From the UHGV virus genome UHGV-1292143: 22,583 nucleotides of DNA. One strand, 5' to 3'. Every line of letters starts with the position of its first letter. The first letter of the stretch is position 1. A program made the position numbers and the translations under genes. Under the pieces are notes generated by a model. The model ran no database searches. It was not told the DNA's origin and was given only the letters and a program-made list of their open reading frames with translations. Below, piece after piece: positions 2,147 through 19,756 of this stretch. Source of the stretch: a virus.

Positions 2147-2235
2147 ATGTCATTTGTCCATTGTGCCAACTGTTATTATGGATATCATAATTCATACGAA
2201 TCGCGCTGCTACAGGATGTATAGCAACCTTAATAA

Positions 2236-3495
2236 TTATTTGAATATATCAGTTATAGTTGGGTAATTATACATCTTAAGCTTATCTCTAAATTTCATAG
2301 AAAATATAGGGTCTACCTTACATCTGTGTAAGAGCTTTGCAATCCTTAGCTCCCTCTCATTCATAATATCTTTGTATTCGCTATCAATACTTTCCTGAAT
2401 TTGCTGATTCTCAACAGGAGACGGTTTAGTAATTTTATCCCATTGATAAGTTGGCTTCGTAGTGTAATTTAAACTATCATCATTTTGGAGTAATGCCTCA
2501 AGACGAGACTTAGCATTTTCATATAGCATTCTATCTTGGGGCAACATACTTGCAACACGCATTTCCATTTCAATTTCCGATACTATCATTTCAAGTTGAC
2601 GTTTTTCCGTTTCAATAGCTAAAAGAAATGGAAATAGGGCTTCTTGCTTAATCATTTGACAATTCAAATTATTGTTTATGCCACTAAGTAATTTTGTAAA
2701 TGAGAACTTCTTTAAAGGCTGCTGATTTATAACACTCTGTCTAACTGGCATTGTGTAGTTCGGTGTTTTTTCAAGTGTTTTCTTCACTTGCTCTATAGCA
2801 ACATTAGGAGTGTTGAAAACAGTCTTTGCTGGAATACGTAGCACCATAAACCCCTCCTTTATTGAATATTCATCACGAATACGATCTCGCTCTATTTGTT
2901 CTGGGGATGAATGCCATGCTGCACCATCAATTTCTATAATTTGGCGTCCATTTACGACAAAATCAAAACGATAACGCTTATAGGGCACTTGCATTTCAAG
3001 CACTAAGTCAGGAGAAACTAACATTCCAGATTTAGGTTTAAGATTAAACTCTGCAACCATTTTACGAAGAAATGCCTCCTCAGCCGGAGATTCGCAACCT
3101 TTGCAAAATATATCAAGCCAGTTTTCTGCGTCAGCGTCAACAGTTTGCCACCATGCTAACAGTCCACGTCGGTGTCCATATAATCGTTCATCTGACGGTT
3201 TTGTTAATGGCTTTGTTAACGGTTTAACTAAGGGTTCATTTAACGGCTTTAATAACGGCTTAAATAACGGCTTATTTAACGAATTTAATAACGATTTATT
3301 TAATGGTTTGATTGACGGTCTATTTGACGACTCAATCGGTGGTTTAGATGATGATTTGTTTTTTTTATCAAAACCTACGATAGTTATATATGCTACATAT
3401 AGCATCATGCCTGCAACAGGCCATACACATGGATAAATCACGTAACACAACAGTAATAGAACAATAGTCCCAAAAAATGTTAACTTCTTCCGCAT
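2236..3495 (-). CDS. membrane-anchored protein with DUF559/Vsr-like (PD-(D/E)xK-type) endonuclease-like domain (419 aa)
   Basis: N-terminus MRKK + hydrophobic hairpin (FFGTIVLLLLCYVIYPCVW / MMLYVAYITIVGF); Pro/Lys-rich tetrapeptide repeat linker; core YRFDFVVNGRQIIEIDGAAWHSSPEQIERDRIRDEYSIKEGFMVLRIP matches the DUF559 signature (RxDF ... IEIDG..H ... D..R ... G..VLR); C-terminal ~190 aa predicted helical, unknown. Confidence 0.6.
   Translation of the reverse strand: MRKKLTFFGTIVLLLLCYVIYPCVWPVAGMMLYVAYITIVGFDKKNKSSSKPPIESSNRPSIKPLNKSLLNSLNKPLFKPLLKPLNEPLVKPLTKPLTKPSDERLYGHRRGLLAWWQTVDADAENWLDIFCKGCESPAEEAFLRKMVAEFNLKPKSGMLVSPDLVLEMQVPYKRYRFDFVVNGRQIIEIDGAAWHSSPEQIERDRIRDEYSIKEGFMVLRIPAKTVFNTPNVAIEQVKKTLEKTPNYTMPVRQSVINQQPLKKFSFTKLLSGINNNLNCQMIKQEALFPFLLAIETEKRQLEMIVSEIEMEMRVASMLPQDRMLYENAKSRLEALLQNDDSLNYTTKPTYQWDKITKPSPVENQQIQESIDSEYKDIMNERELRIAKLLHRCKVDPIFSMKFRDKLKMYNYPTITDIFK
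3195..3356 (-). repeat. about 13 imperfect tandem 12-bp units inside the 2236-3495 CDS, encoding K-P-L-x tetrapeptide repeats
   Basis: Plus-strand units such as TTAATAACGGCT / TAAATAACGGCT / TATTTAACGAAT; translated on minus strand as LNKP LFKP LLKP LNEP LVKP LTKP LTKP. Confidence 0.8.
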
Positions 3496-3720
3496 ACCAA
3501 ACTCTTTGCATCAATAAAGGGGACTGGCTTATATAATCAAATCACATGCCCGAAATAAAAGATGACCAACACCAACGGAAATCACACTCTAAACTAATAT
3601 ACATTAACACTTAATATCGCCATCACAATTGATTGATTATGCTAATTTAAAAATGATATTTTTACAGAGAATATACAGCTCTACAAGATGACTATTACAC
3701 CAAAATTTAAAAAAATCATT

Positions 3721-3766
3721 GGCAACCTTGTAGAATTGATATTAACAATCGATTCTACGGGTTGCC
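3721..3766 (-). terminator. long inverted repeat (GGCAACCTTGTAGAAT-N15-ATTCTACGGGTTGCC) followed on the minus strand by a T-run; likely terminator of the 4874-3811 transcript
   Basis: 15-16 bp arms with one mismatch; minus-strand sequence after the hairpin is AATGATTTTTTTAAATTTTGG. The 15-nt loop is large for a terminator. Confidence 0.45.
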
Positions 3767-3810
3767 ATTTGCTACATAGAGTGTAATAAGAGAGGATGGT
3801 TCAACGGAAA

Positions 3811-4350
3811 TTACCACCAGCTACTGGCTTTTTTCTCCCTTGCTTTACCTTCGCTTTGCAATAAATCCTTACTCCCTGAAGAGATGTTACGATTTGCATC
3901 AGCTTCAGACTGAATCACATCAGTTCTTGCAGCCCTTTCCTTTAGCTCCTGCTCAATGAAATCGTTTTCTCTCTTAACTCGAGCAGCTTTCGCTTGTAGC
4001 TCAAGCTTCATTTTCTCAAGTTCTAATTTACGAAGCTCATCTTCATAAGCCTGATTTCGCTTTTTCTCTGCGGTCAATTCAGCTTCACGCTTCGCTCTGC
4101 GCTCATTTTCCGCCGCTATACGAGCTTTCTCGCGGGCATTTGCAGCTGCCGCAGCCCTCTCTCTTCTTAAACGTTCAGCATTTTCTTGCTTGCGAATTTG
4201 CTCTAGTCTGGCATCCTCCAGCTGCTGTTCTCTTGCTCGACCTTCACTTTCTGCCTGGGCAATAGCAGCTATTTGACTCTGCAATGAATTAGCAAATACA
4301 TTGCCTGTATTCAAAGCAGCCAAACATAAATAACAAATAATTTTCTTCAT
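3811..4350 (-). CDS. secreted highly charged ER/K-rich coiled-coil protein (179 aa)
   Basis: N-terminal signal peptide MKKIICYLCLAALNTGNVFA; mature part is E/R/K/A-rich helical (TolA-domain-II-like composition). Starts 11 nt after the stop of the upstream lipoprotein gene. Confidence 0.65.
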   Translation of the reverse strand: MKKIICYLCLAALNTGNVFANSLQSQIAAIAQAESEGRAREQQLEDARLEQIRKQENAERLRRERAAAAANAREKARIAAENERRAKREAELTAEKKRNQAYEDELRKLELEKMKLELQAKAARVKRENDFIEQELKERAARTDVIQSEADANRNISSGSKDLLQSEGKAREKKASSWW

Positions 4351-4361
4351 ATCTTATTGAG

Positions 4362-4874
4362 TTATTTTTTATCAGGACATGTAGCATTAGGTTGAATGCG
4401 CGTTTCGTTTTCTTTCGTTGAAATCAAAGCCGCGATTCCAGGGGCAAATTGGCAAGCTCTACCAACCTGTGTAGATGTATAGACTTTAGTACCTTCCTTG
4501 TAAGTAAGAGATACACCTTCAACAATTGATTTATCACTTACCATAGAACCAGCAGCTGCGCCAAGAGCTCCACCGCCAGCACCACCAGCAACTGCACCCA
4601 AGGTAGAAGTTCCTTTAATATTATATCCAGCAACACTACCAGCTACTGCACCGAGAACAGCACCGAAAGTCTGAGCTGCTTGTTTATTAGCTGTATTATC
4701 AACTTTTACTTTGGCTGGGAGAACAGAGATTATATTTACTACTCTTGTTTCTTGTTTTGAATTAAGTTGGGCTGTGTCGTACACATCTGCCGCATATTCA
4801 GCACCATTAGACTGACACCCTGAGAGAAAAATTGCAGAAACAACCATGACGCATAAAGAAGAAATTTTAGCCAT
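4362..4874 (-). CDS. SlyB/Pcp-like glycine-zipper outer-membrane lipoprotein (about 170 aa from the chosen start)
   Basis: Lipobox AIFLSG|C after a signal peptide; Gly/Ala zipper GAVLGAVAGSVAGYNIKGTSTLGAVAGGAGGGALGAAAGS; overall resemblance to E. coli SlyB. Start chosen at ATG 4872-4874 (MAKISS...); alternatives are 4883 or the track start 4934. Confidence 0.65.
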   Translation of the reverse strand: MAKISSLCVMVVSAIFLSGCQSNGAEYAADVYDTAQLNSKQETRVVNIISVLPAKVKVDNTANKQAAQTFGAVLGAVAGSVAGYNIKGTSTLGAVAGGAGGGALGAAAGSMVSDKSIVEGVSLTYKEGTKVYTSTQVGRACQFAPGIAALISTKENETRIQPNATCPDKK

Positions 4875-5163
4875 TAGAATCATCCCAGAAAAAAAATATA
4901 ATCCAAGAAAATCTATCACATAAGCCAAATACAAACAAGATTAATCCTATTGATGTATATCAATTATTATAAAAAATACGATCTTCATTGCTGAAGCTGC
5001 GTTATATTAAGTCTAAAAAAATCAACTATCGACATTATATGCTCTGCTAATAATTTACACTTGATTTAGTTGAGTTGGTTTAATATTGACACTAACTCAC
5101 TCTCTAATTATATACAATTTCCAATTTTATATGCGCATATATGGAAACCTATACCAACAGCAT

Positions 5164-5180
5164 GTTGCTCTAATAAATTT
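5164..5180 (+). promoter_or_regulatory. C1-repressor-type operator (P1 Op51-like) overlapping a promoter
   Basis: GTTGCTCTAATAAATTT, one mismatch to the P1 C1 operator consensus ATTGCTCTAATAAATTT as I recall it; TTGCTC acts as a -35 with TAAGTC 17 bp downstream (5188-5193). Confidence 0.6.
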
Positions 5181-5494: not shown

Positions 5495-5716
5495 ATGGTT
5501 AATGCCAATCCTTACGCACGCCAAGAATTCATCTGGCGTTTCTATTCCTGTAAAAAACACCACTATCACTTCGTCATCGCAGCAACAGAAGACGAAGCAC
5601 GCTCTCAATTGCCTGATGGCCCCTGCATTTTTACTGCCCGTTTTTCAACTAACTCGCGCAATTCACTTAGTTACTGGAACCTCCCCTTCTCTGCCGACGT
5701 TCAGGGGGATTTATGA
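5495..5716 (+). CDS. icd: Icd-like small protein (73 aa), translationally coupled to ant
   Basis: 73-aa ORF whose stop overlaps the ant start (ATGA at 5713-5716); position downstream of c4 matches P1 immI organisation. Confidence 0.65.
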   Translation: MVNANPYARQEFIWRFYSCKKHHYHFVIAATEDEARSQLPDGPCIFTARFSTNSRNSLSYWNLPFSADVQGDL

Positions 5717-6747
5717 AAAAACCTCTCGTCACCCGTAATGAAATAGCCGAAGCGATCGCCCTGCATACAACCTGTATGCCGACACGGGAGATCCCCGGCG
5801 CAATTGCCAACTATTTCATGATAACCAGACGTTTTTATACCCGAACAGATAAGGCTGTGATCAACAAGCTACTGATAGCCGAGATCAGGGATTATTTGAT
5901 TGAACAAGGACGTCTACGTTACGCAACAGTGGCAGCAGAAATGAGAAAGGAGGCACACAGAGTGACCGGTAAAAATTTGAATATTGAAAAACCAGCACCT
6001 GTTACGTCAGCTACGCCAACACCAGCCGTGAATGTCATCCCCAACATCGGAGACACAATCGACAGCCAAACATTGTTGAAGATGGTCAATGAGGCACGGA
6101 AATTATGTAGCGAAAAACCAGTTCGCAATAATGATTTCATTGCCAGAGTTAAGGATGAACTTGAAGGAGAAACCTACGAAATTTTCGTAGGTCAAAAAAA
6201 CGGCGCAGAAATAGATATTATAACAATGACCTACAAACAAGCCCTGCGAGTTGCCGCGCGCGAGTCAAAAGCGGTCCGCCGTTCGCTGATCGACAAACTG
6301 GAAGAATTACAGCAGGCAAACTCCCCTACCCCATCGATCCCCCAGACATTACCAGAAGCCCTACGCCTGGCTGCCGAGTTAGCAGAACAGAAAATGCAGT
6401 TGGAACAACAGCTGGTGGCCGCAGCCCCTAAAGTCGATTTTGCCGACCGGGTATCAGTGGCCAATGGAATCCTGATCGGGAACTTTGCAAAGGTCGTTGG
6501 ACTTAAGCAAAACGCCCTTTTCTCATGGTTGCGCCAGAACGGCATTCTCATGGCTTTTGGTGCGCGCAAAAACGTACCGCGCCAACAGTACATCAACGCC
6601 GGGTATTTCACGGTGAAAGAAGTGGTGTTGGATGATGAAAATGGCTACCAGATACGGCTGACGCCCCAATTAACGGGTAAAGGCCAGCAGTGGTTAACTC
6701 GCAAGCTACTTGATGCTGGTTTGTTAAAACCAGTAGCAATAGGTTAA
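5713..6747 (+). CDS. ant: antirepressor Ant-like protein with C-terminal KilA-C/ANT domain (344 aa)
   Basis: C-terminal region PKVDFADRV...IGNFAKVVG...LFSWLRQNGIL...GYFTVKE...GKGQQWL is a KilA-C-type antirepressor domain; gene order c4-icd-ant. Confidence 0.65.
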   Translation: MKKPLVTRNEIAEAIALHTTCMPTREIPGAIANYFMITRRFYTRTDKAVINKLLIAEIRDYLIEQGRLRYATVAAEMRKEAHRVTGKNLNIEKPAPVTSATPTPAVNVIPNIGDTIDSQTLLKMVNEARKLCSEKPVRNNDFIARVKDELEGETYEIFVGQKNGAEIDIITMTYKQALRVAARESKAVRRSLIDKLEELQQANSPTPSIPQTLPEALRLAAELAEQKMQLEQQLVAAAPKVDFADRVSVANGILIGNFAKVVGLKQNALFSWLRQNGILMAFGARKNVPRQQYINAGYFTVKEVVLDDENGYQIRLTPQLTGKGQQWLTRKLLDAGLLKPVAIG

Positions 6748-6758
6748 CAAAAGAAAAA

Positions 6759-6784
6759 ACCTGCCAGCAAACTGACAGGTTTCT
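6759..6784 (+). terminator. rho-independent terminator after ant
   Basis: ACCTGCCAG-CAAA-CTGACAGGT hairpin (one mismatch) followed by TTCT. Confidence 0.5.
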
Positions 6785-6824
6785 GAGCAGATCGACCAAC
6801 CCGATCTGGATCGAGTTAGAAAAA

Positions 6825-6841
6825 TTTGCTCTAATAAATTT
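6825..6841 (+). promoter_or_regulatory. C1-repressor-type operator (P1 Op53-like) in front of kilA
   Basis: TTTGCTCTAATAAATTT; same extended promoter architecture as at 5164 (TTGCTC ... 17 bp ... TAAGTG). Confidence 0.6.
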
Positions 6842-6910
6842 CGTTTTCTAAGTGCAAAGAATCACCATTTCGAGCTGGTGATTGAAGGTTGATGCAAATT
6901 TGGAGAAAAA

Positions 6911-7711
6911 ATGCAACAAACATTCAATGCGGATATGAATATATCAAACCTTCATCAAAATGTCGATCCTTCAACCACTCTTCCCGTTATTTGTGGTGTT
7001 GAAATTACGACCGACCGCGCTGGCCGTTACAACCTTAATGCTCTACACAGAGCGAGCGGACTCGGTGCCCATAAAGCGCCAGCTCAATGGCTAAGAACGC
7101 TGTCAGCTAAACAGCTCATCGAAGAGCTTGAAAAAGAAACTATGCAGAATTGCATAGTTTCGTTCGAAGGCCGTGGCGGCGGCACTTTTGCCCATGAATT
7201 GCTCGCAGTGGAGTACGCTGGTTGGATTTCTCCCGCGTTTCGGCTGAAGGTAAACCAGACATTTATCGACTATCGAGCTGGAAGATTACAACCTGCTATT
7301 CCGCAGAGTCTCCCTGAAGCTCTCCGTTTGGCTGCCGAACTGGCAGAGCAAAAGCAACGGCTGGAGCAAAAAATGCTTATGGATGCACCTAAAGTCGAAT
7401 TCGCCGAACGCGTTGCTACCGCCAGCGGGGTTCTAATCGGCAACTATGCCAAAGTGCTCGGCCTGGGCCAAAACTATCTCTTCACCTGGTTGCGTGATAA
7501 CGGAATTCTGATCGCAACCGGTGAACGCAGGAACGTCCCCAAACAAGAATACATATCCCGTGGATATTTCACCCTTAAAGAAACCGTGATCGATACAAGC
7601 AATGGAAGCAGGATTTCTTTCACGACTCGTATAACCGGCAAAGGTCAGCAGTGGCTGATGAAGCGATTGCTTGATGCTGGTGTGCTGGTACCTGTCGCGG
7701 CAACGCGCTAA
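6911..7711 (+). CDS. kilA: KilA-like protein: KilA-N domain plus KilA-C domain (266 aa)
   Basis: N-terminal VICGVEITTDRAGRYNLNALHRASGLGAHKAPAQWLRT...FAHELLAVEYAGWISPAFRLKV (KilA-N-like); C-terminal domain about 65% identical to the Ant C-terminus; GGAGA Shine-Dalgarno before the ATG. Confidence 0.7.
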   Translation: MQQTFNADMNISNLHQNVDPSTTLPVICGVEITTDRAGRYNLNALHRASGLGAHKAPAQWLRTLSAKQLIEELEKETMQNCIVSFEGRGGGTFAHELLAVEYAGWISPAFRLKVNQTFIDYRAGRLQPAIPQSLPEALRLAAELAEQKQRLEQKMLMDAPKVEFAERVATASGVLIGNYAKVLGLGQNYLFTWLRDNGILIATGERRNVPKQEYISRGYFTLKETVIDTSNGSRISFTTRITGKGQQWLMKRLLDAGVLVPVAATR

Positions 7712-8871: not shown

Positions 8872-9068
8872 TACGTAGATTAGCCTCTTACCGACCAAAA
8901 GGTCAAGGAGAAGCAGGCTATGAAGCAGCAAAAAGCGATGTTAATCGCTCTGATCGTCATCTGTTTAACCGTCATTGTGACGGCACTGGTAACGAGGAAA
9001 GACCTCTGCGAGGTACGAATCCGAACCGGCCAGACGGAGGTCACTGTCTTCACAGCCTACGAATCTGA
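8862..9068 (+). CDS. mok-like leader ORF overlapping hok in another frame
   Basis: 68-aa ORF starting upstream of hok and overlapping it, as in hok/mok/sok loci. Confidence 0.4.
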   Translation: MLSIRRLASYRPKGQGEAGYEAAKSDVNRSDRHLFNRHCDGTGNEERPLRGTNPNRPDGGHCLHSLRI

Positions 9069-9075
9069 AAGGTAA
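8920..9075 (+). CDS. hok: Hok/Gef-family type I toxin (51 aa)
   Basis: MKQQKAMLIALIVICLTVIVTALVTRKDLCEVRIRTGQTEVTVFTAYESER: N-terminal transmembrane helix plus conserved TRKDLCEV and FTAYE motifs; AAGGAG Shine-Dalgarno 9 nt upstream. Confidence 0.85.
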   Translation: MKQQKAMLIALIVICLTVIVTALVTRKDLCEVRIRTGQTEVTVFTAYESER

Positions 9076-18299: not shown

Positions 18300-18600
18300 A
18301 GAAATGGCGATGAGGCTATTAGATGTGTGCTGGAGGGATGATGCAGGACCAGAATGTGCGATAGAGGGAAGTCGCATTGAATTATGTGTTGTGGAGGGAT
18401 CGCTGGTATCAAATATGTGCGCTGAAGGGAAAGATAGAAGATTAGATGTGCGCTGGAGGGAAACTTGGATGGTTAGATGTGTGCTGGAGGGAATGTCTGG
18501 GCAAACTGCGTGGCGCAACCCTCCAGCGCACACCAAAAACAGGAAAATGGGCAGGCATTCCCGGCAGCGCACATTTTTCAAATGCAGCTGCCCTCCAGCA
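18300..18600. repeat. incA-like array of ~19-bp RepA iterons (about 9 copies, both orientations)
   Basis: Repeated GATGTGTGCTGGAGGGAAA-like units with the last copies inverted; located downstream of repA. Confidence 0.8.
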
Positions 18601-18605
18601 CACAC

Positions 18606-19466
18606 TTATTCGGGAAGTTTCAGCTTTGGATTGCGAGAATGGACGATTACAAAACTTTCCCGGCCTTTCTTCTCAATTGAACAGTCGAGATAGCCGATTG
18701 TTTTAAGCTGTTCTATCGCTTTCTTAATGATACGGTTTTGCTCGCCAACAGCTGACTGCAAAGCCAGGCGCTCACGGATTCGCGCGAACGATAGCGGCAA
18801 CGGGTTCTGCGGAAGGCTTTCGATGAAAGTGTAAATGGCTTGTGCAGCTTCTTTCTTCGGAAGGGCACGCAAGGCGTGGTGTTGCAACAGAACGCGATAA
18901 TCAAGCTGGAACAGCTCCCAGAGCTTCGAATCGGCCTCCAGCTCTATCAGATCAAGGTCAGCATCAAAACGCCCGACCTTCAGCAGACCAGTCTGATAGC
19001 CGCCTTTAGCATCTTTTCCGCGCTTAAAAGCGATACCCTTGTTACGCAAGCGTCCAAGTGATTCATGAATGGTTAAACGCAGTTTCGCATCCAGACGTTT
19101 TGAGGGGAAACCACAGGCTTTAGCGAACTCCTGAAACGATAACTGGATGGTGTTTGAAGACAAGCCGTATTTGCTGAACGCGTAGATGACACCGATCCAC
19201 GTTTTGAAATCAGTATCCATATCGAGTCGAGGACCGGTGATTTTAATATCATCGTAACCCTCGGCTTTAGCTATCTCCAGCTGGGAAAACGCTTTGGTGG
19301 CATCAATCTCTTTACTTTCTCCTTTGCTCTTTGATGGCTTCGGAACGAATACCCCCAAGCGCATCAACGCTACAGGCTGCACAGTGTTGTTTGAATTAAC
19401 TGTTAGTTCTTTTGCCTTACTTTCAATGTCTGCGTAAAGAATATCGGAGATAAATGATTGATTCAT
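18606..19466 (-). CDS. repA: RepA plasmid-prophage replication initiator (286 aa)
   Basis: Flanked by iteron arrays on both sides; protein matches my recollection of P1 RepA very closely (not verified). Confidence 0.9.
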   Translation of the reverse strand: MNQSFISDILYADIESKAKELTVNSNNTVQPVALMRLGVFVPKPSKSKGESKEIDATKAFSQLEIAKAEGYDDIKITGPRLDMDTDFKTWIGVIYAFSKYGLSSNTIQLSFQEFAKACGFPSKRLDAKLRLTIHESLGRLRNKGIAFKRGKDAKGGYQTGLLKVGRFDADLDLIELEADSKLWELFQLDYRVLLQHHALRALPKKEAAQAIYTFIESLPQNPLPLSFARIRERLALQSAVGEQNRIIKKAIEQLKTIGYLDCSIEKKGRESFVIVHSRNPKLKLPE

Positions 19467-19756
19467 ATTACTTTTTCCGAATTATGTGGATAGTTTTTAT
19501 AAGTGGTGATAACTACCCAGGCTTTCCCGTCAGCACACATCCTATATCCCGCCAGCACACATTAGCAACCCGTCAGCACACATTTTTATCCCTCCAGCAC
19601 ACATCGTTTTCCCTCCAGCACACATCGCGATACACTTCTAAGCCAGACGTGGCGCGGCCTGCAACGATCAGGGATCTATATGGATCTAATTGGGATCTGT
19701 ATGGACCTAATTATTGGATCTACCCAGTGGATAATGTGGATAATGTGGATAAGTGA
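19467..19756. other. oriR-like plasmid origin: five incC iterons, GATC-containing heptamer repeats, tandem DnaA boxes
   Basis: Iterons at 19524-19628 (CCAGCACACAT cores); five GATC motifs at 19667-19725; TGTGGATAA-type DnaA boxes at 19728-19755 and near 19474-19490. Confidence 0.8.

What the first reader, a model, noticed from the sequence alone, without database searches (positions are those of the whole stretch)
3195..3356. Tandem 12-bp repeats encoding a (K-P-L-x)n linker inside the nuclease-domain gene
About 13 imperfect 12-bp units sit in frame between the membrane anchor and the DUF559 domain. A Pro/Lys-rich rigid spacer of variable unit number would set the distance of the nuclease domain from the membrane, and in-frame tandem repeats are slippage-prone, so copy number may vary between isolates.
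Basis: seen in the sequence. Interest (0 to 1): 0.55.

Follow-up and report, generated by a model that had tools for sequence, protein, structure and literature searches.

The report
Variable-length linker in membrane-anchored nuclease
A real, in-frame 12-base tandem repeat encodes a Lys/Pro/Leu-rich flexible tether between the membrane anchor and the DNA-cutting domain of an uncharacterised cargo gene on a P1-like phage-plasmid; its unit number does differ among E. coli isolates (8, 11, 13 or 14), but this is an ordinary kind of linker length polymorphism, not an on/off switch.

Summary
Window 3190-3345 (minus strand) holds 13 head-to-tail 12-bp units, plus a degenerate 14th at 3178-3189. They lie in frame in a 419-aa ORF (2236-3495, minus strand) and encode (K-P-L-x)13. 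Lag-12 identity is 0.63, against a maximum of 0.53 in 5000 codon shuffles.

The array sits between a two-helix membrane hairpin (aa 2-45) and a Vsr/DUF559-type nuclease domain (aa 113-245). A helical C-terminal domain of unknown function follows.

The predicted copy-number variation exists. E. coli proteins with 8, 11, 13 and 14 units were found, and every difference is a whole unit. In complete plasmids only 13 and 11 units occur, and each goes with one allele lineage, so slippage is infrequent.

About 170 more distant family members keep the hairpin, nuclease and C-terminal domain. Their linker is short, Pro-rich and non-repetitive (spacing mostly 21-32 aa, maximum 51, against 83 here).

AlphaFold2 models the array as disordered (pLDDT 36-42), so "rigid" is not supported.

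The gene is a 1.65-kb AT-rich insertion in the superimmunity (sim) slot of a P1-like IncY phage-plasmid. A membrane-tethered exclusion or defence nuclease is the most likely role, but this is inferred only. Interest is modest.

The parts
2236..3495 (-). 419-aa ORF made of a membrane hairpin, the KPLx tether, a Vsr/DUF559 nuclease domain and a helical C-terminal domain. RefSeq annotates it as 'DUF559 / endonuclease domain-containing protein'.
   Evidence: ORF list. Pfam DUF559 at 30.5 bits (cutoff 20.6) and MTES_1575 at 37.5 bits (cutoff 38.2). Identical CDS annotated in 9 plasmids. 66 homologue clusters besides its own.
3361..3492 (-). N-terminal two-helix hydrophobic hairpin (aa 2-45) with a Pro-containing turn YPCVWP. 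The flanks MRKK (+3) and DKKNK (+2) point to both ends being cytoplasmic.
   Evidence: AlphaFold2 helices 2-20 and 24-45, pLDDT 82-86. Flank charges read from the sequence. The hairpin, with a nearly invariant Pro22, is conserved across the family. Median hydrophobic span is 33 aa.
3190..3345 (-). Tandem array of 13 x 12 bp encoding (K-P-L-x)13, aa 51-102.
   Evidence: Predicted disordered, pLDDT 36-42. Net charge +7, with 11 Pro and 11 Leu in 52 aa.
3178..3189 (-). Degenerate 14th unit (GAACGATTATAT, ERLY; 7 of 12 bases match the consensus).
3250..3273 (-). The two units (KPLF KPLL, 24 bp) that are missing from the 11-unit allele. The 14-unit variant carries an extra KPLL at this same place.
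   Evidence: DNA and protein alignments with plasmids NZ_CP020936 and NZ_CP142045. P0078 sequence.
2761..3159 (-). Vsr-like PD-(D/E)xK nuclease domain (aa 113-245). The residues E135-S-P-A-E139, D178, E188, D190, H195, R203, D204, R207, D208 and R220 are invariant in the family.
2272..2700 (-). C-terminal helical domain (aa 266-408). It is conserved in the family but has no Pfam or PDB match, and it is the part that differs most between the two E. coli alleles.
   Evidence: AlphaFold2 helices 266-315, 319-338, 364-394 and 396-408, pLDDT 94-98. No Pfam hit. Allele comparison.
2158..3811 (-). 1654-bp AT-rich cargo insertion (the gene plus its own flanks) relative to phage SJ46. It lies in the slot that holds simA-simB-simC in P1.
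   Evidence: Local blastn breakpoints. P1 and SJ46 annotation. GC 0.34-0.37 against 0.47-0.50 in the flanks.

Best explanation
The feature is an in-frame minisatellite: 12-bp units, 13 copies here. It encodes a Lys/Pro/Leu-rich, intrinsically disordered tether. The tether joins a two-helix inner-membrane hairpin to a cytoplasm-facing Vsr/DUF559-type endonuclease domain.

The array arose by tandem duplication within the short Pro-rich linker that the whole protein family has. The likely mechanisms are replication slippage or unequal recombination between near-identical AAGCCGTTA units. The array still gains and loses whole units occasionally, and 8, 11, 13 and 14 units have been seen.

Because the unit is a multiple of three, the changes alter only tether length. 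The hairpin-to-domain linker (aa 43-112) spans about 50-74 residues across the variants, against about 13 in typical family members. They never alter the reading frame, so this is length polymorphism and not phase variation.

Shown here: the repeat, its frame, its position, its polymorphism, its absence from distant relatives, and intact nuclease motifs.

Inferred: the tether is tolerant of length change, so the variation is largely neutral or at most modulatory. It increases the reach of the nuclease from the membrane. The protein is lysogenic-conversion cargo of the P1-like phage-plasmid and acts as a membrane-tethered exclusion or defence nuclease against DNA entering at the inner membrane.
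For: Repeat and statistics.

Frame and domain order.

Whole-unit polymorphism: an exact 24-bp gap between alleles. P0078 (423 aa) has an extra KPLL. P0090 (398 aa) lacks three units relative to the 410-aa allele. Both were seen in several independent accessions.

Proto-array and an independent KPSS duplication in 56%-identical Escherichia relatives.

Family-wide short linker: hairpin-to-CESPAE spacing is mostly 21-32 aa (overall 11-51) in about 170 representatives, against 83 here. The linker sequence is not conserved.

Disorder: pLDDT 36-42 for aa 48-112, while the flanking domains reach 82-98.

Relaxed constraint: 3 of the 4 substitutions in the first 400 nt between alleles are nonsynonymous changes inside the array, while aa 1-50 and 113-226 are identical.

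Cytoplasmic orientation: both hairpin flanks are positively charged.

Active-site residues are invariant, and the fold is closest to DUF559, I-Bth0305I and Vsr.

Cargo status: AT-rich 1654-bp insertion in the sim slot. The gene occurs without its neighbours in other IncY plasmids. Relatives stand alone next to integrases in Pantoea and on a 3-kb ColE1-type plasmid.
Against: There is no experimental evidence on function, topology or linker behaviour.

The K-P-L core is better kept than position x across units (11 of 39 versus 9 of 13 codons changed, Fisher p = 0.019). Synonymous variation occurs within K and P codons. Together these could mean that the tether sequence itself is selected and is not a mere spacer.

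The family's otherwise tight spacing suggests that linker length matters elsewhere, so a 3- to 6-fold expansion may not be neutral.

No hit to any known defence system beyond weak local nuclease-domain matches (PADLOC PDC-S37 1.1e-5, Hhe 1.8e-3).

Two unit counts co-segregate with allele lineages in all complete plasmids, so ongoing slippage is documented only by rare variants from draft assemblies.
Confidence: 0.65

Rival explanations
1. Adaptive molecular ruler. The KPLx array is a stiff polyproline-II-like rod. Its unit number is selected to set a precise distance between the membrane and the nuclease active site, and slippage supplies adaptive variants.
For: Pro recurs with strict 4-residue periodicity and the K-P-L core is conserved relative to position x. 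Unit number differs between lineages. The rest of the family keeps a narrow spacing, which implies that distance matters for this protein.
Against: AlphaFold2 gives no ordered structure. Pro every fourth residue is not the X-Pro pattern of known rigid spacers. Lengths of 8, 11, 13 and 14 units all persist in nature. Within each allele lineage the number is constant across 16 and 4 complete plasmids, so there is no sign of rapid tuning. dN/dS in the linker is about 0.9 on very few sites.
Confidence: 0.15
2. The array is a functional polycationic module and not a spacer. Its net charge is +7, or +11 over the whole linker, while the short linkers of relatives are neutral to acidic. It could bind DNA, capturing substrate for the adjacent nuclease, or lie on anionic phospholipids.
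For: Charge counts. Relatives' linkers such as EDLKTPSIIPVPPAPTWRD are not basic. The position directly adjoins the nuclease domain.
Against: There is no homology to known DNA-binding repeats (no Pfam hit in aa 46-112). The family functions without it. The idea is purely compositional.
Confidence: 0.12
3. The hydrophobic segment is a single long transmembrane helix. The Pro-rich tether and nuclease would then be periplasmic, a TonB-like arrangement that acts on DNA in transit through the envelope.
For: The hydrophobic span is only 30-41 aa (median 33) in the family, which is short for two full transmembrane helices. The gene's neighbours in the slot are envelope proteins, a lipoprotein and the signal-peptide protein DUF5384.
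Against: A nearly invariant Pro and the YPCVWP turn split the segment, and AlphaFold2 models a hairpin. The C-side flank DKKNKSSSK is positively charged, which the positive-inside rule places in the cytoplasm. There is no signal-peptidase-type site. The nuclease gene also occurs without those neighbours.
Confidence: 0.08
4. The repeat acts at the DNA level, as protein-binding iterons or through the antisense ORF 3101-3436. Alternatively, the reported copy-number variants are assembly artefacts.
For: The window contains genuine iteron arrays elsewhere (18415-18493 and 19523-19627). An antisense ORF of 111 aa spans the array. The 8- and 14-unit forms come from draft assemblies.
Against: All indels are whole 12-bp units and preserve the minus-strand frame. 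The minus-strand ORF has a conserved domain architecture in more than 200 relatives that lack the repeat. The antisense ORF is just the mirror image of the repeat. The 11- versus 13-unit difference is seen in many closed, complete plasmids. P0090 is reported under four separate accessions.
Confidence: 0.04

Closest known systems
DUF559 (PF04480) / Vsr-like PD-(D/E)xK endonucleases. Structures: NGO0050 (PDB 3hrl), the I-Bth0305I 'EDxHD' homing-endonuclease catalytic domain (3r3p) and E. coli Vsr (1cw0).
   Different: Those proteins are soluble, or are fused to DNA-binding, helicase or methylase modules. This one is tethered to a membrane hairpin through a repeat linker and carries an unannotated helical C-terminal domain. 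No substrate is known.
In-frame tandem-repeat (VNTR / minisatellite) length polymorphism in bacterial coding regions, and Pro-rich interdomain spacers such as the (Glu-Pro)n-(Lys-Pro)m region of TonB. This comparison rests on general knowledge.
   Same: Short in-frame units encode a Pro/Lys-rich segment between a membrane anchor and a functional domain. Unit number differs among isolates through whole-unit gain and loss.
   Different: Pro occurs every fourth residue, not every second. The segment is predicted to be disordered and most likely faces the cytoplasm, not the periplasm. The variation is infrequent and mostly fixed within lineages.
P1 superimmunity locus simA-simB-simC.
   Same: Same genomic slot and transcription direction, between the c4/Oc4 immunity region and pmgC. 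Both are accessory genes not needed for phage structure.
   Different: There is no sequence similarity: tblastn of the 419-aa protein against 50,697 phage records, P1 and P7 included, found nothing. SimC is annotated as the superimmunity protein, whereas this protein is a nuclease with an uncleaved hairpin anchor.
Membrane-anchored or nuclease-bearing anti-phage proteins. Examples are Shedu variants with transmembrane N-termini (from general knowledge), and Hhe and PADLOC candidate PDC-S37, which contain a DUF559-like domain.
   Same: A single-gene module combines a PD-(D/E)xK-superfamily nuclease with a localisation or sensor part. It is carried on mobile elements and next to integrases.
   Different: Only weak local matches exist, limited to the nuclease domain (PDC-S37 1.1e-5 over 75 aa; Hhe 1.8e-3 in PADLOC and 3.5e-3 at 14.7 bits in NCBIfam, curated cutoff 2000). 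The nuclease family differs from Shedu's DUF4263. No defence phenotype has been reported; the literature searches found nothing.

Membership tests
Tandem-repeat (VNTR-type) coding-length polymorphism | Three or more head-to-tail copies of a short unit, above chance | tested here: met
   13-14 units of 12 bp. Lag-12 identity 0.63 against a maximum of 0.53 in 5000 codon shuffles.
Tandem-repeat (VNTR-type) coding-length polymorphism | Unit length is a multiple of 3 and the array lies in the frame of a real gene | tested here: met
   12-bp units within the 419-aa ORF, which has a Pfam domain and more than 200 relatives.
Tandem-repeat (VNTR-type) coding-length polymorphism | Copy number differs among isolates by whole units | tested here: met
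   8, 11, 13 and 14 units. In complete plasmids only 11 and 13 occur.
Phase-variable contingency locus (on/off switching by repeat slippage) | Unit-number change shifts the reading frame or alters promoter spacing | tested here: not met
   The unit is 12 bp, and all observed variants keep the full downstream protein in frame.
Phase-variable contingency locus (on/off switching by repeat slippage) | High-frequency variation within clonal lineages | tested here: inconclusive
   No variation among 16 complete plasmids of one allele or among 4 of the other. Within-clone data (deep or long-read sequencing) are not available with these tools.
DUF559 / Vsr-like PD-(D/E)xK endonuclease | Profile match above the curated threshold | tested here: met
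   PF04480 at 30.5 bits against a cutoff of 20.6. The related PF18741 scores 37.5 bits, just under its cutoff of 38.2.
DUF559 / Vsr-like PD-(D/E)xK endonuclease | Conserved catalytic-core residues present | tested here: met
   E139, D178, E188, D190 and H195 are invariant in 54 family sequences. Their assignment as catalytic is by analogy and was not tested.
DUF559 / Vsr-like PD-(D/E)xK endonuclease | Vsr-like fold | tested here: met
DUF559 / Vsr-like PD-(D/E)xK endonuclease | Endonuclease activity | not testable with these tools
   Requires biochemistry.
Rigid Pro-rich spacer of the TonB type | X-Pro dipeptide repeats forming an extended stiff rod | tested here: not met
   Pro occurs every fourth residue. 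AlphaFold2 pLDDT is 36-42 with no regular structure. Actual stiffness is not testable here.
P1 Sim superimmunity proteins | Sequence homology to SimA, SimB or SimC | tested here: not met
   tblastn against the phage collection, which includes P1 and P7, gave no match. Only the genomic slot is shared.
Known anti-phage defence systems (PADLOC-DB 2.0, NCBIfam) | Full-length match to a system's protein model | tested here: not met
   Only 57-75-aa local hits to the nuclease part of PDC-S37 and Hhe.

The most novel reading that the evidence does not exclude
The hairpin + DUF559 + helical-domain family (about 220 representatives at 50% identity) would be an undescribed single-gene, membrane-tethered exclusion or defence nuclease. 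It is carried by phage-plasmids, small ColE1-type plasmids and chromosomal islands. Confinement near the membrane would spare the host nucleoid. The P1-plasmid lineage would then have used a slippage-prone KPLx array to lengthen, and occasionally retune, the reach of the nuclease toward entering DNA.
Probability: 0.15. Interest if true: 0.6.

Novelty: new member of a known kind. Interest (0 to 1): 0.3.

Why it matters
The repeat itself is a textbook case of whole-unit slippage in a disordered linker, and it has some practical value. It is a simple length marker that separates the two allele lineages of this cargo gene in IncY/P1-like plasmids, many of which come from clinical, food and animal E. 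coli.

The more interesting point lies beyond the finding. The repeat marks an uncharacterised, conserved family of membrane-anchored Vsr-like nucleases. Here the gene occupies the superimmunity slot of a P1-like phage-plasmid, and elsewhere it is the sole cargo of 3-kb plasmids. If the protein proves to be an exclusion or defence nuclease, the natural series of 8-14 units, together with relatives that have about 13-residue linkers, would be a ready-made test of whether tether length limits what a membrane-bound nuclease can reach.

Tried and rejected
1. Antisense ORF 3101-3436 (111 aa, NGLx repeats). Rejected as a mirror image of the repeat. The minus-strand ORF carries the conserved domains.

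2. DNA-level iterons or binding sites. Rejected because indels are always whole in-frame units and relatives keep the protein without the repeat.

3. Phase variation. Rejected because the unit is 12 bp.

4. Homologues in sequenced phages. Megablast and tblastn against 50,697 phage records found nothing, so the gene is absent from P1, P7, SJ46, RCS47 and D6 as deposited.

5. Sequence search of the PDB found nothing significant (best E 0.057, to the unrelated Pcc1). The fold search was needed instead.

6. The PADLOC, NCBIfam and PHROGs libraries gave only weak nuclease-domain hits and no named system.

7. Literature searches (DUF559 + transmembrane + phage; DUF559 + anti-phage; P1-like phage-plasmid defence hotspot) found no description of this protein.

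Those variants are therefore known at the protein level only. P0022 was not on record.

9. The consensus promoter scan found no convincing minus-strand sigma-70 site in the 316-bp upstream region, and the region as a whole was not enriched above shuffles. Expression timing is unknown.

10. No PDB match was found for the C-terminal helical domain.
Full report
**1. The observation**

The sequence at 3178-3345 was read on both strands. On the minus strand it lies inside a 419-aa ORF (2236-3495). Cut into codon-phased 12-mers from K51, it gives 13 units: KPPI ESSN RPSI KPLN KSLL NSLN KPLF KPLL KPLN EPLV KPLT KPLT KPSD (window 3190-3345). A degenerate 14th unit, ERLY, follows at 3178-3189.

Each unit matches the consensus AAACCGTTAATT at 7-10 of 12 bases. 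Self-identity at lags 12, 24 and 36 is 0.63-0.67, against about 0.2-0.39 at other lags. In 5000 mononucleotide shuffles the best lag never exceeded 0.48. In 5000 codon shuffles, which keep amino-acid and codon composition, it never exceeded 0.53. Over the whole 22.6-kb window, 156-bp segments average 0.27 (sd 0.05), and the ten best all fall at this place.

Tandem Repeats Finder picks up only the best-conserved core: period 12 x 4.4 copies at 3241-3293 and period 36 x 2.6 copies at 3204-3298.

**2. The gene that contains it**

Pfam gives DUF559 (30.5 bits, cutoff 20.6) and the related REase_MTES_1575 (37.5 bits, just under 38.2) for aa 163-241.

An AlphaFold2 model was built on a 54-sequence family alignment. 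It shows:
- Two N-terminal helices, 2-20 and 24-45, forming a hairpin (pLDDT 82-86).
- No structure and pLDDT 36-42 for aa 48-112, which is exactly the array plus short flanks.
- A confident alpha/beta domain at 113-245 (pLDDT about 95).
- A confident helical domain at 266-408 (pLDDT 94-98).

In the family alignment, E135-S-P-A-E139, D178, E188, D190, H195, R203, D204, R207, D208 and R220 are invariant. The nuclease core therefore looks intact.

The C-terminal helical domain has no Pfam or PDB counterpart.

The hairpin flanks are MRKK (+3) and DKKNK (+2), and the whole linker carries +11. By the positive-inside rule both ends, and hence the nuclease, face the cytoplasm. This is an inference, not a measurement.

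**3. The replicon and the locus**

The window is a P1-like IncY phage-plasmid.
- PHROGs identify PmgB (384-902), the tail tube protein (917-1528) and PmgC (1539-2105).
- icd-ant1-ant2 follow at 5495-7711.
- P1-type iterons and DnaA boxes lie at 18.4-19.8 kb.
- The identical gene is annotated on 9 plasmids typed IncY where examined.

Local blastn against P1 and SJ46 shows about 95-99% identical flanks to P1. Window 2164-5165 replaces P1's simA-simB-simC. Phage SJ46 has the lipoprotein and the DUF5384 protein in that slot but lacks the nuclease gene.

Relative to SJ46, window 2158-3811 is a 1654-bp insertion. Its GC content is 0.34-0.37, against 0.47-0.50 for the backbone.

In HB-Coli0-type plasmids the nuclease gene is present without the lipoprotein and DUF5384 genes, so it is an autonomous module. 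No sequenced phage in the 50,697-record collection has a homologue.

**4. Does the unit number vary?**

Yes. Complete plasmids and RefSeq E. coli genomes carry two alleles:

| Allele | Gene length | Units | PLSDB plasmids | RefSeq genomes |
|---|---|---|---|---|
| >=99% identical to the window | 1260 bp | 13 | 16 | 15 |
| about 94.5% identical | 1233 bp | 11 | 3 full-length + 1 truncated | 7 full-length + 1 truncated |

The DNA alignment shows that the shorter allele lacks exactly 24 bp, the units KPLF-KPLL (window 3250-3273). It also lacks one codon far downstream.

Cluster members in the 15-billion-protein collection add two more forms:
- P0078 (423 aa, 2 contigs) has an extra KPLL at that same spot, giving 14 units.
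- P0090 (398 aa, 4 contigs, four accessions) lacks three further units relative to the 410-aa allele, giving 8 units.

The 56%-identical proteins of Escherichia sp. E1130, E. coli and E. marmotae have only a proto-array (KPSN KQPH ESPL). In E. marmotae this carries its own KPSS duplication.

All changes are whole units flanked by near-identical AA(A/G)CCGTTA sequence, as expected for slippage or unequal recombination. Within each allele lineage, however, the number is constant across all closed plasmids. The rate must therefore be low.

**5. The wider family**

One search found 66 homologue clusters besides the window's own. A profile search of the 1.84-billion-protein representative library found 222 proteins at E <= 1e-30. 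Hosts include Pectobacterium, Pantoea, Pseudomonas, Rhizobium, Mesorhizobium and Roseomonas.

These proteins share the hairpin (with a nearly invariant Pro), the nuclease and the helical domain. Their linker is a short, non-repetitive, usually Pro-rich stretch such as KTPSIIPVPPAPTWRD.

I measured the spacing from the end of the hydrophobic segment to eight residues before the CESPAE motif. Among the non-E. coli-plasmid clusters it is 16-40 aa. In 108 further representatives it is 11-51 aa, with a median of about 25 and 95% between 20 and 32. The window protein has 83.

The array is thus a lineage-specific expansion of an ancestral short linker. The window allele and its 14-unit variant have the longest linkers seen.

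Family members stand alone:
- In Pectobacterium, next to ASCH and Exo_endo_phos genes.
- In Pantoea, beside a site used by two different integrase-bearing elements.
- In Shigella and E. coli, as the only cargo of a 3-kb Rop/ColE1-type plasmid.

**6. How it most likely works**

Shown:
- An in-frame, polymorphic minisatellite.
- Predicted disorder.
- Strong positive charge.
- A position between the anchor and an apparently intact nuclease.

Inferred:
- The array is a flexible-to-extended tether. By my own polymer-scaling estimate, the expected end-to-end distance rises from about 2.5 nm for a 13-residue family-type linker to about 5.5-7 nm for the 50-74-residue linkers of the 8- to 14-unit variants. 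The maximum PPII-like extension rises from about 4 nm to 15-23 nm.
- Length changes are tolerated.

Evidence for tolerance:
- Four lengths coexist.
- The linker is the only part of the N-terminal 226 residues that differs between the alleles. It has 3 nonsynonymous changes, 1 synonymous change and the indel (dN/dS about 0.9 on few sites), while the hairpin and nuclease are identical.
- Linker sequence is unconserved across the family.

Evidence against pure neutrality:
- The K-P-L core is better kept than position x (Fisher p = 0.019).
- The rest of the family keeps a narrow spacing.

I therefore rank the readings as follows:

| Reading | Confidence |
|---|---|
| Tolerant tether with lineage-specific expansion | about 0.65 |
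| Adaptive ruler | about 0.15 |
| Polycationic DNA- or lipid-binding module | about 0.12 |
| Periplasmic, TonB-like orientation | about 0.08 |
| DNA-level element or assembly artefact | about 0.04 |

For the protein as a whole I propose a membrane-tethered exclusion or defence nuclease. The grounds are the sim-slot location, the AT-rich cargo character, its autonomy, and its carriage on small plasmids and next to integrases. This is inference only. No known defence model matches beyond the nuclease domain, and no paper describing it was found.

**7. Comparison with what is known, and verdict**

The nuclease domain is a member of DUF559/Vsr-like PD-(D/E)xK enzymes: threshold, motifs and fold were all tested and met. 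The repeat meets all three defining features of a coding VNTR. It fails the defining feature of a contingency (on/off) locus.

It is not a TonB-type X-Pro rod. It is not related to Sim proteins. It is not a member of any catalogued defence system.

The 'rigid spacer that sets the distance' reading is unsupported.

As a phenomenon this is a new example of a well-known kind, so interest is modest (0.3). The uncharacterised nuclease family that it marks is the more promising lead.

Noticed in passing
window 2236-2815 (aa 227-419 of the nuclease gene) versus L001 6001-7233: The two E. coli alleles are identical over aa 1-50 and 113-226 but differ at 23 of 192 aligned residues in aa 227-419 (dN/dS about 0.64-1.35). 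This suggests either a recombination breakpoint or faster evolution of the unannotated C-terminal helical domain.
   Followed up: partly
window 2164-5165: The P1 superimmunity genes simA, simB and simC are replaced here. In their place are a glycine-zipper-like lipoprotein (4362-4934, phrog_1277), a signal-peptide coiled-coil DUF5384 protein (3811-4350, phrog_1094) and the nuclease gene. Phage SJ46 has the first two only. This slot is evidently a cargo-exchange site in P1-like elements.
   Followed up: partly
window about 385-386: Homology to P1 jumps from inside pmgB to inside sit, so about 1.7 kb of P1 is missing. PmgB is truncated to 172 aa and the start of the Sit transglycosylase/tape-measure gene is removed. 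In the identical plasmid pE2 an IS1 lies close by. The element is probably a defective prophage that persists as a plasmid.
   Followed up: partly
L012 (NZ_CP058889.1, Shigella flexneri, 2998 bp) 1902-2960: A 3-kb Rop/ColE1-type plasmid carries a 52%-identical member of the same hairpin-nuclease family as its only sizeable cargo gene. The gene is unannotated in the record, and the matching E. coli cluster P0006 is also on roughly 3-kb contigs. A nuclease as the sole cargo of a small plasmid hints at a selfish, exclusion or defence role.
   Followed up: partly
L002 (NZ_CP142045.1, pL9-1) 6001-6708: The 11-unit allele is cut off after residue 242 by an IS91-family insertion. The hairpin, tether and nuclease domain remain but the C-terminal domain is lost.
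   Followed up: no
window 18415-18493, 19523-19627, 19672-19752: These are P1-type plasmid replication elements around repA (18606-19466, minus strand). They comprise iteron arrays with the core ATGTGCGCTGGAGGGAAA (periods 31 and 21) and three tandem GTGGATAAT DnaA-box-like units. They are known features of the P1 oriR/incC/incA region.
   Followed up: no
window 3101-3436 (+): A 111-aa antisense ORF runs through the array and reads as (N-G-L-x)n. It is a by-product of the repeat and there is no evidence that it is a gene.
   Followed up: yes
window about 8920-9075 (from pE2 annotation, L003 10386-10541): A hokD-type type I toxin gene lies downstream of the antirepressor genes. The window coordinates are derived from the offset to pE2 and were not checked directly in the window. 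The flanking pE2 region also carries an 'anti-phage deoxyguanosine triphosphatase', so this plasmid lineage has accumulated several accessory and defence-type genes.
   Followed up: no
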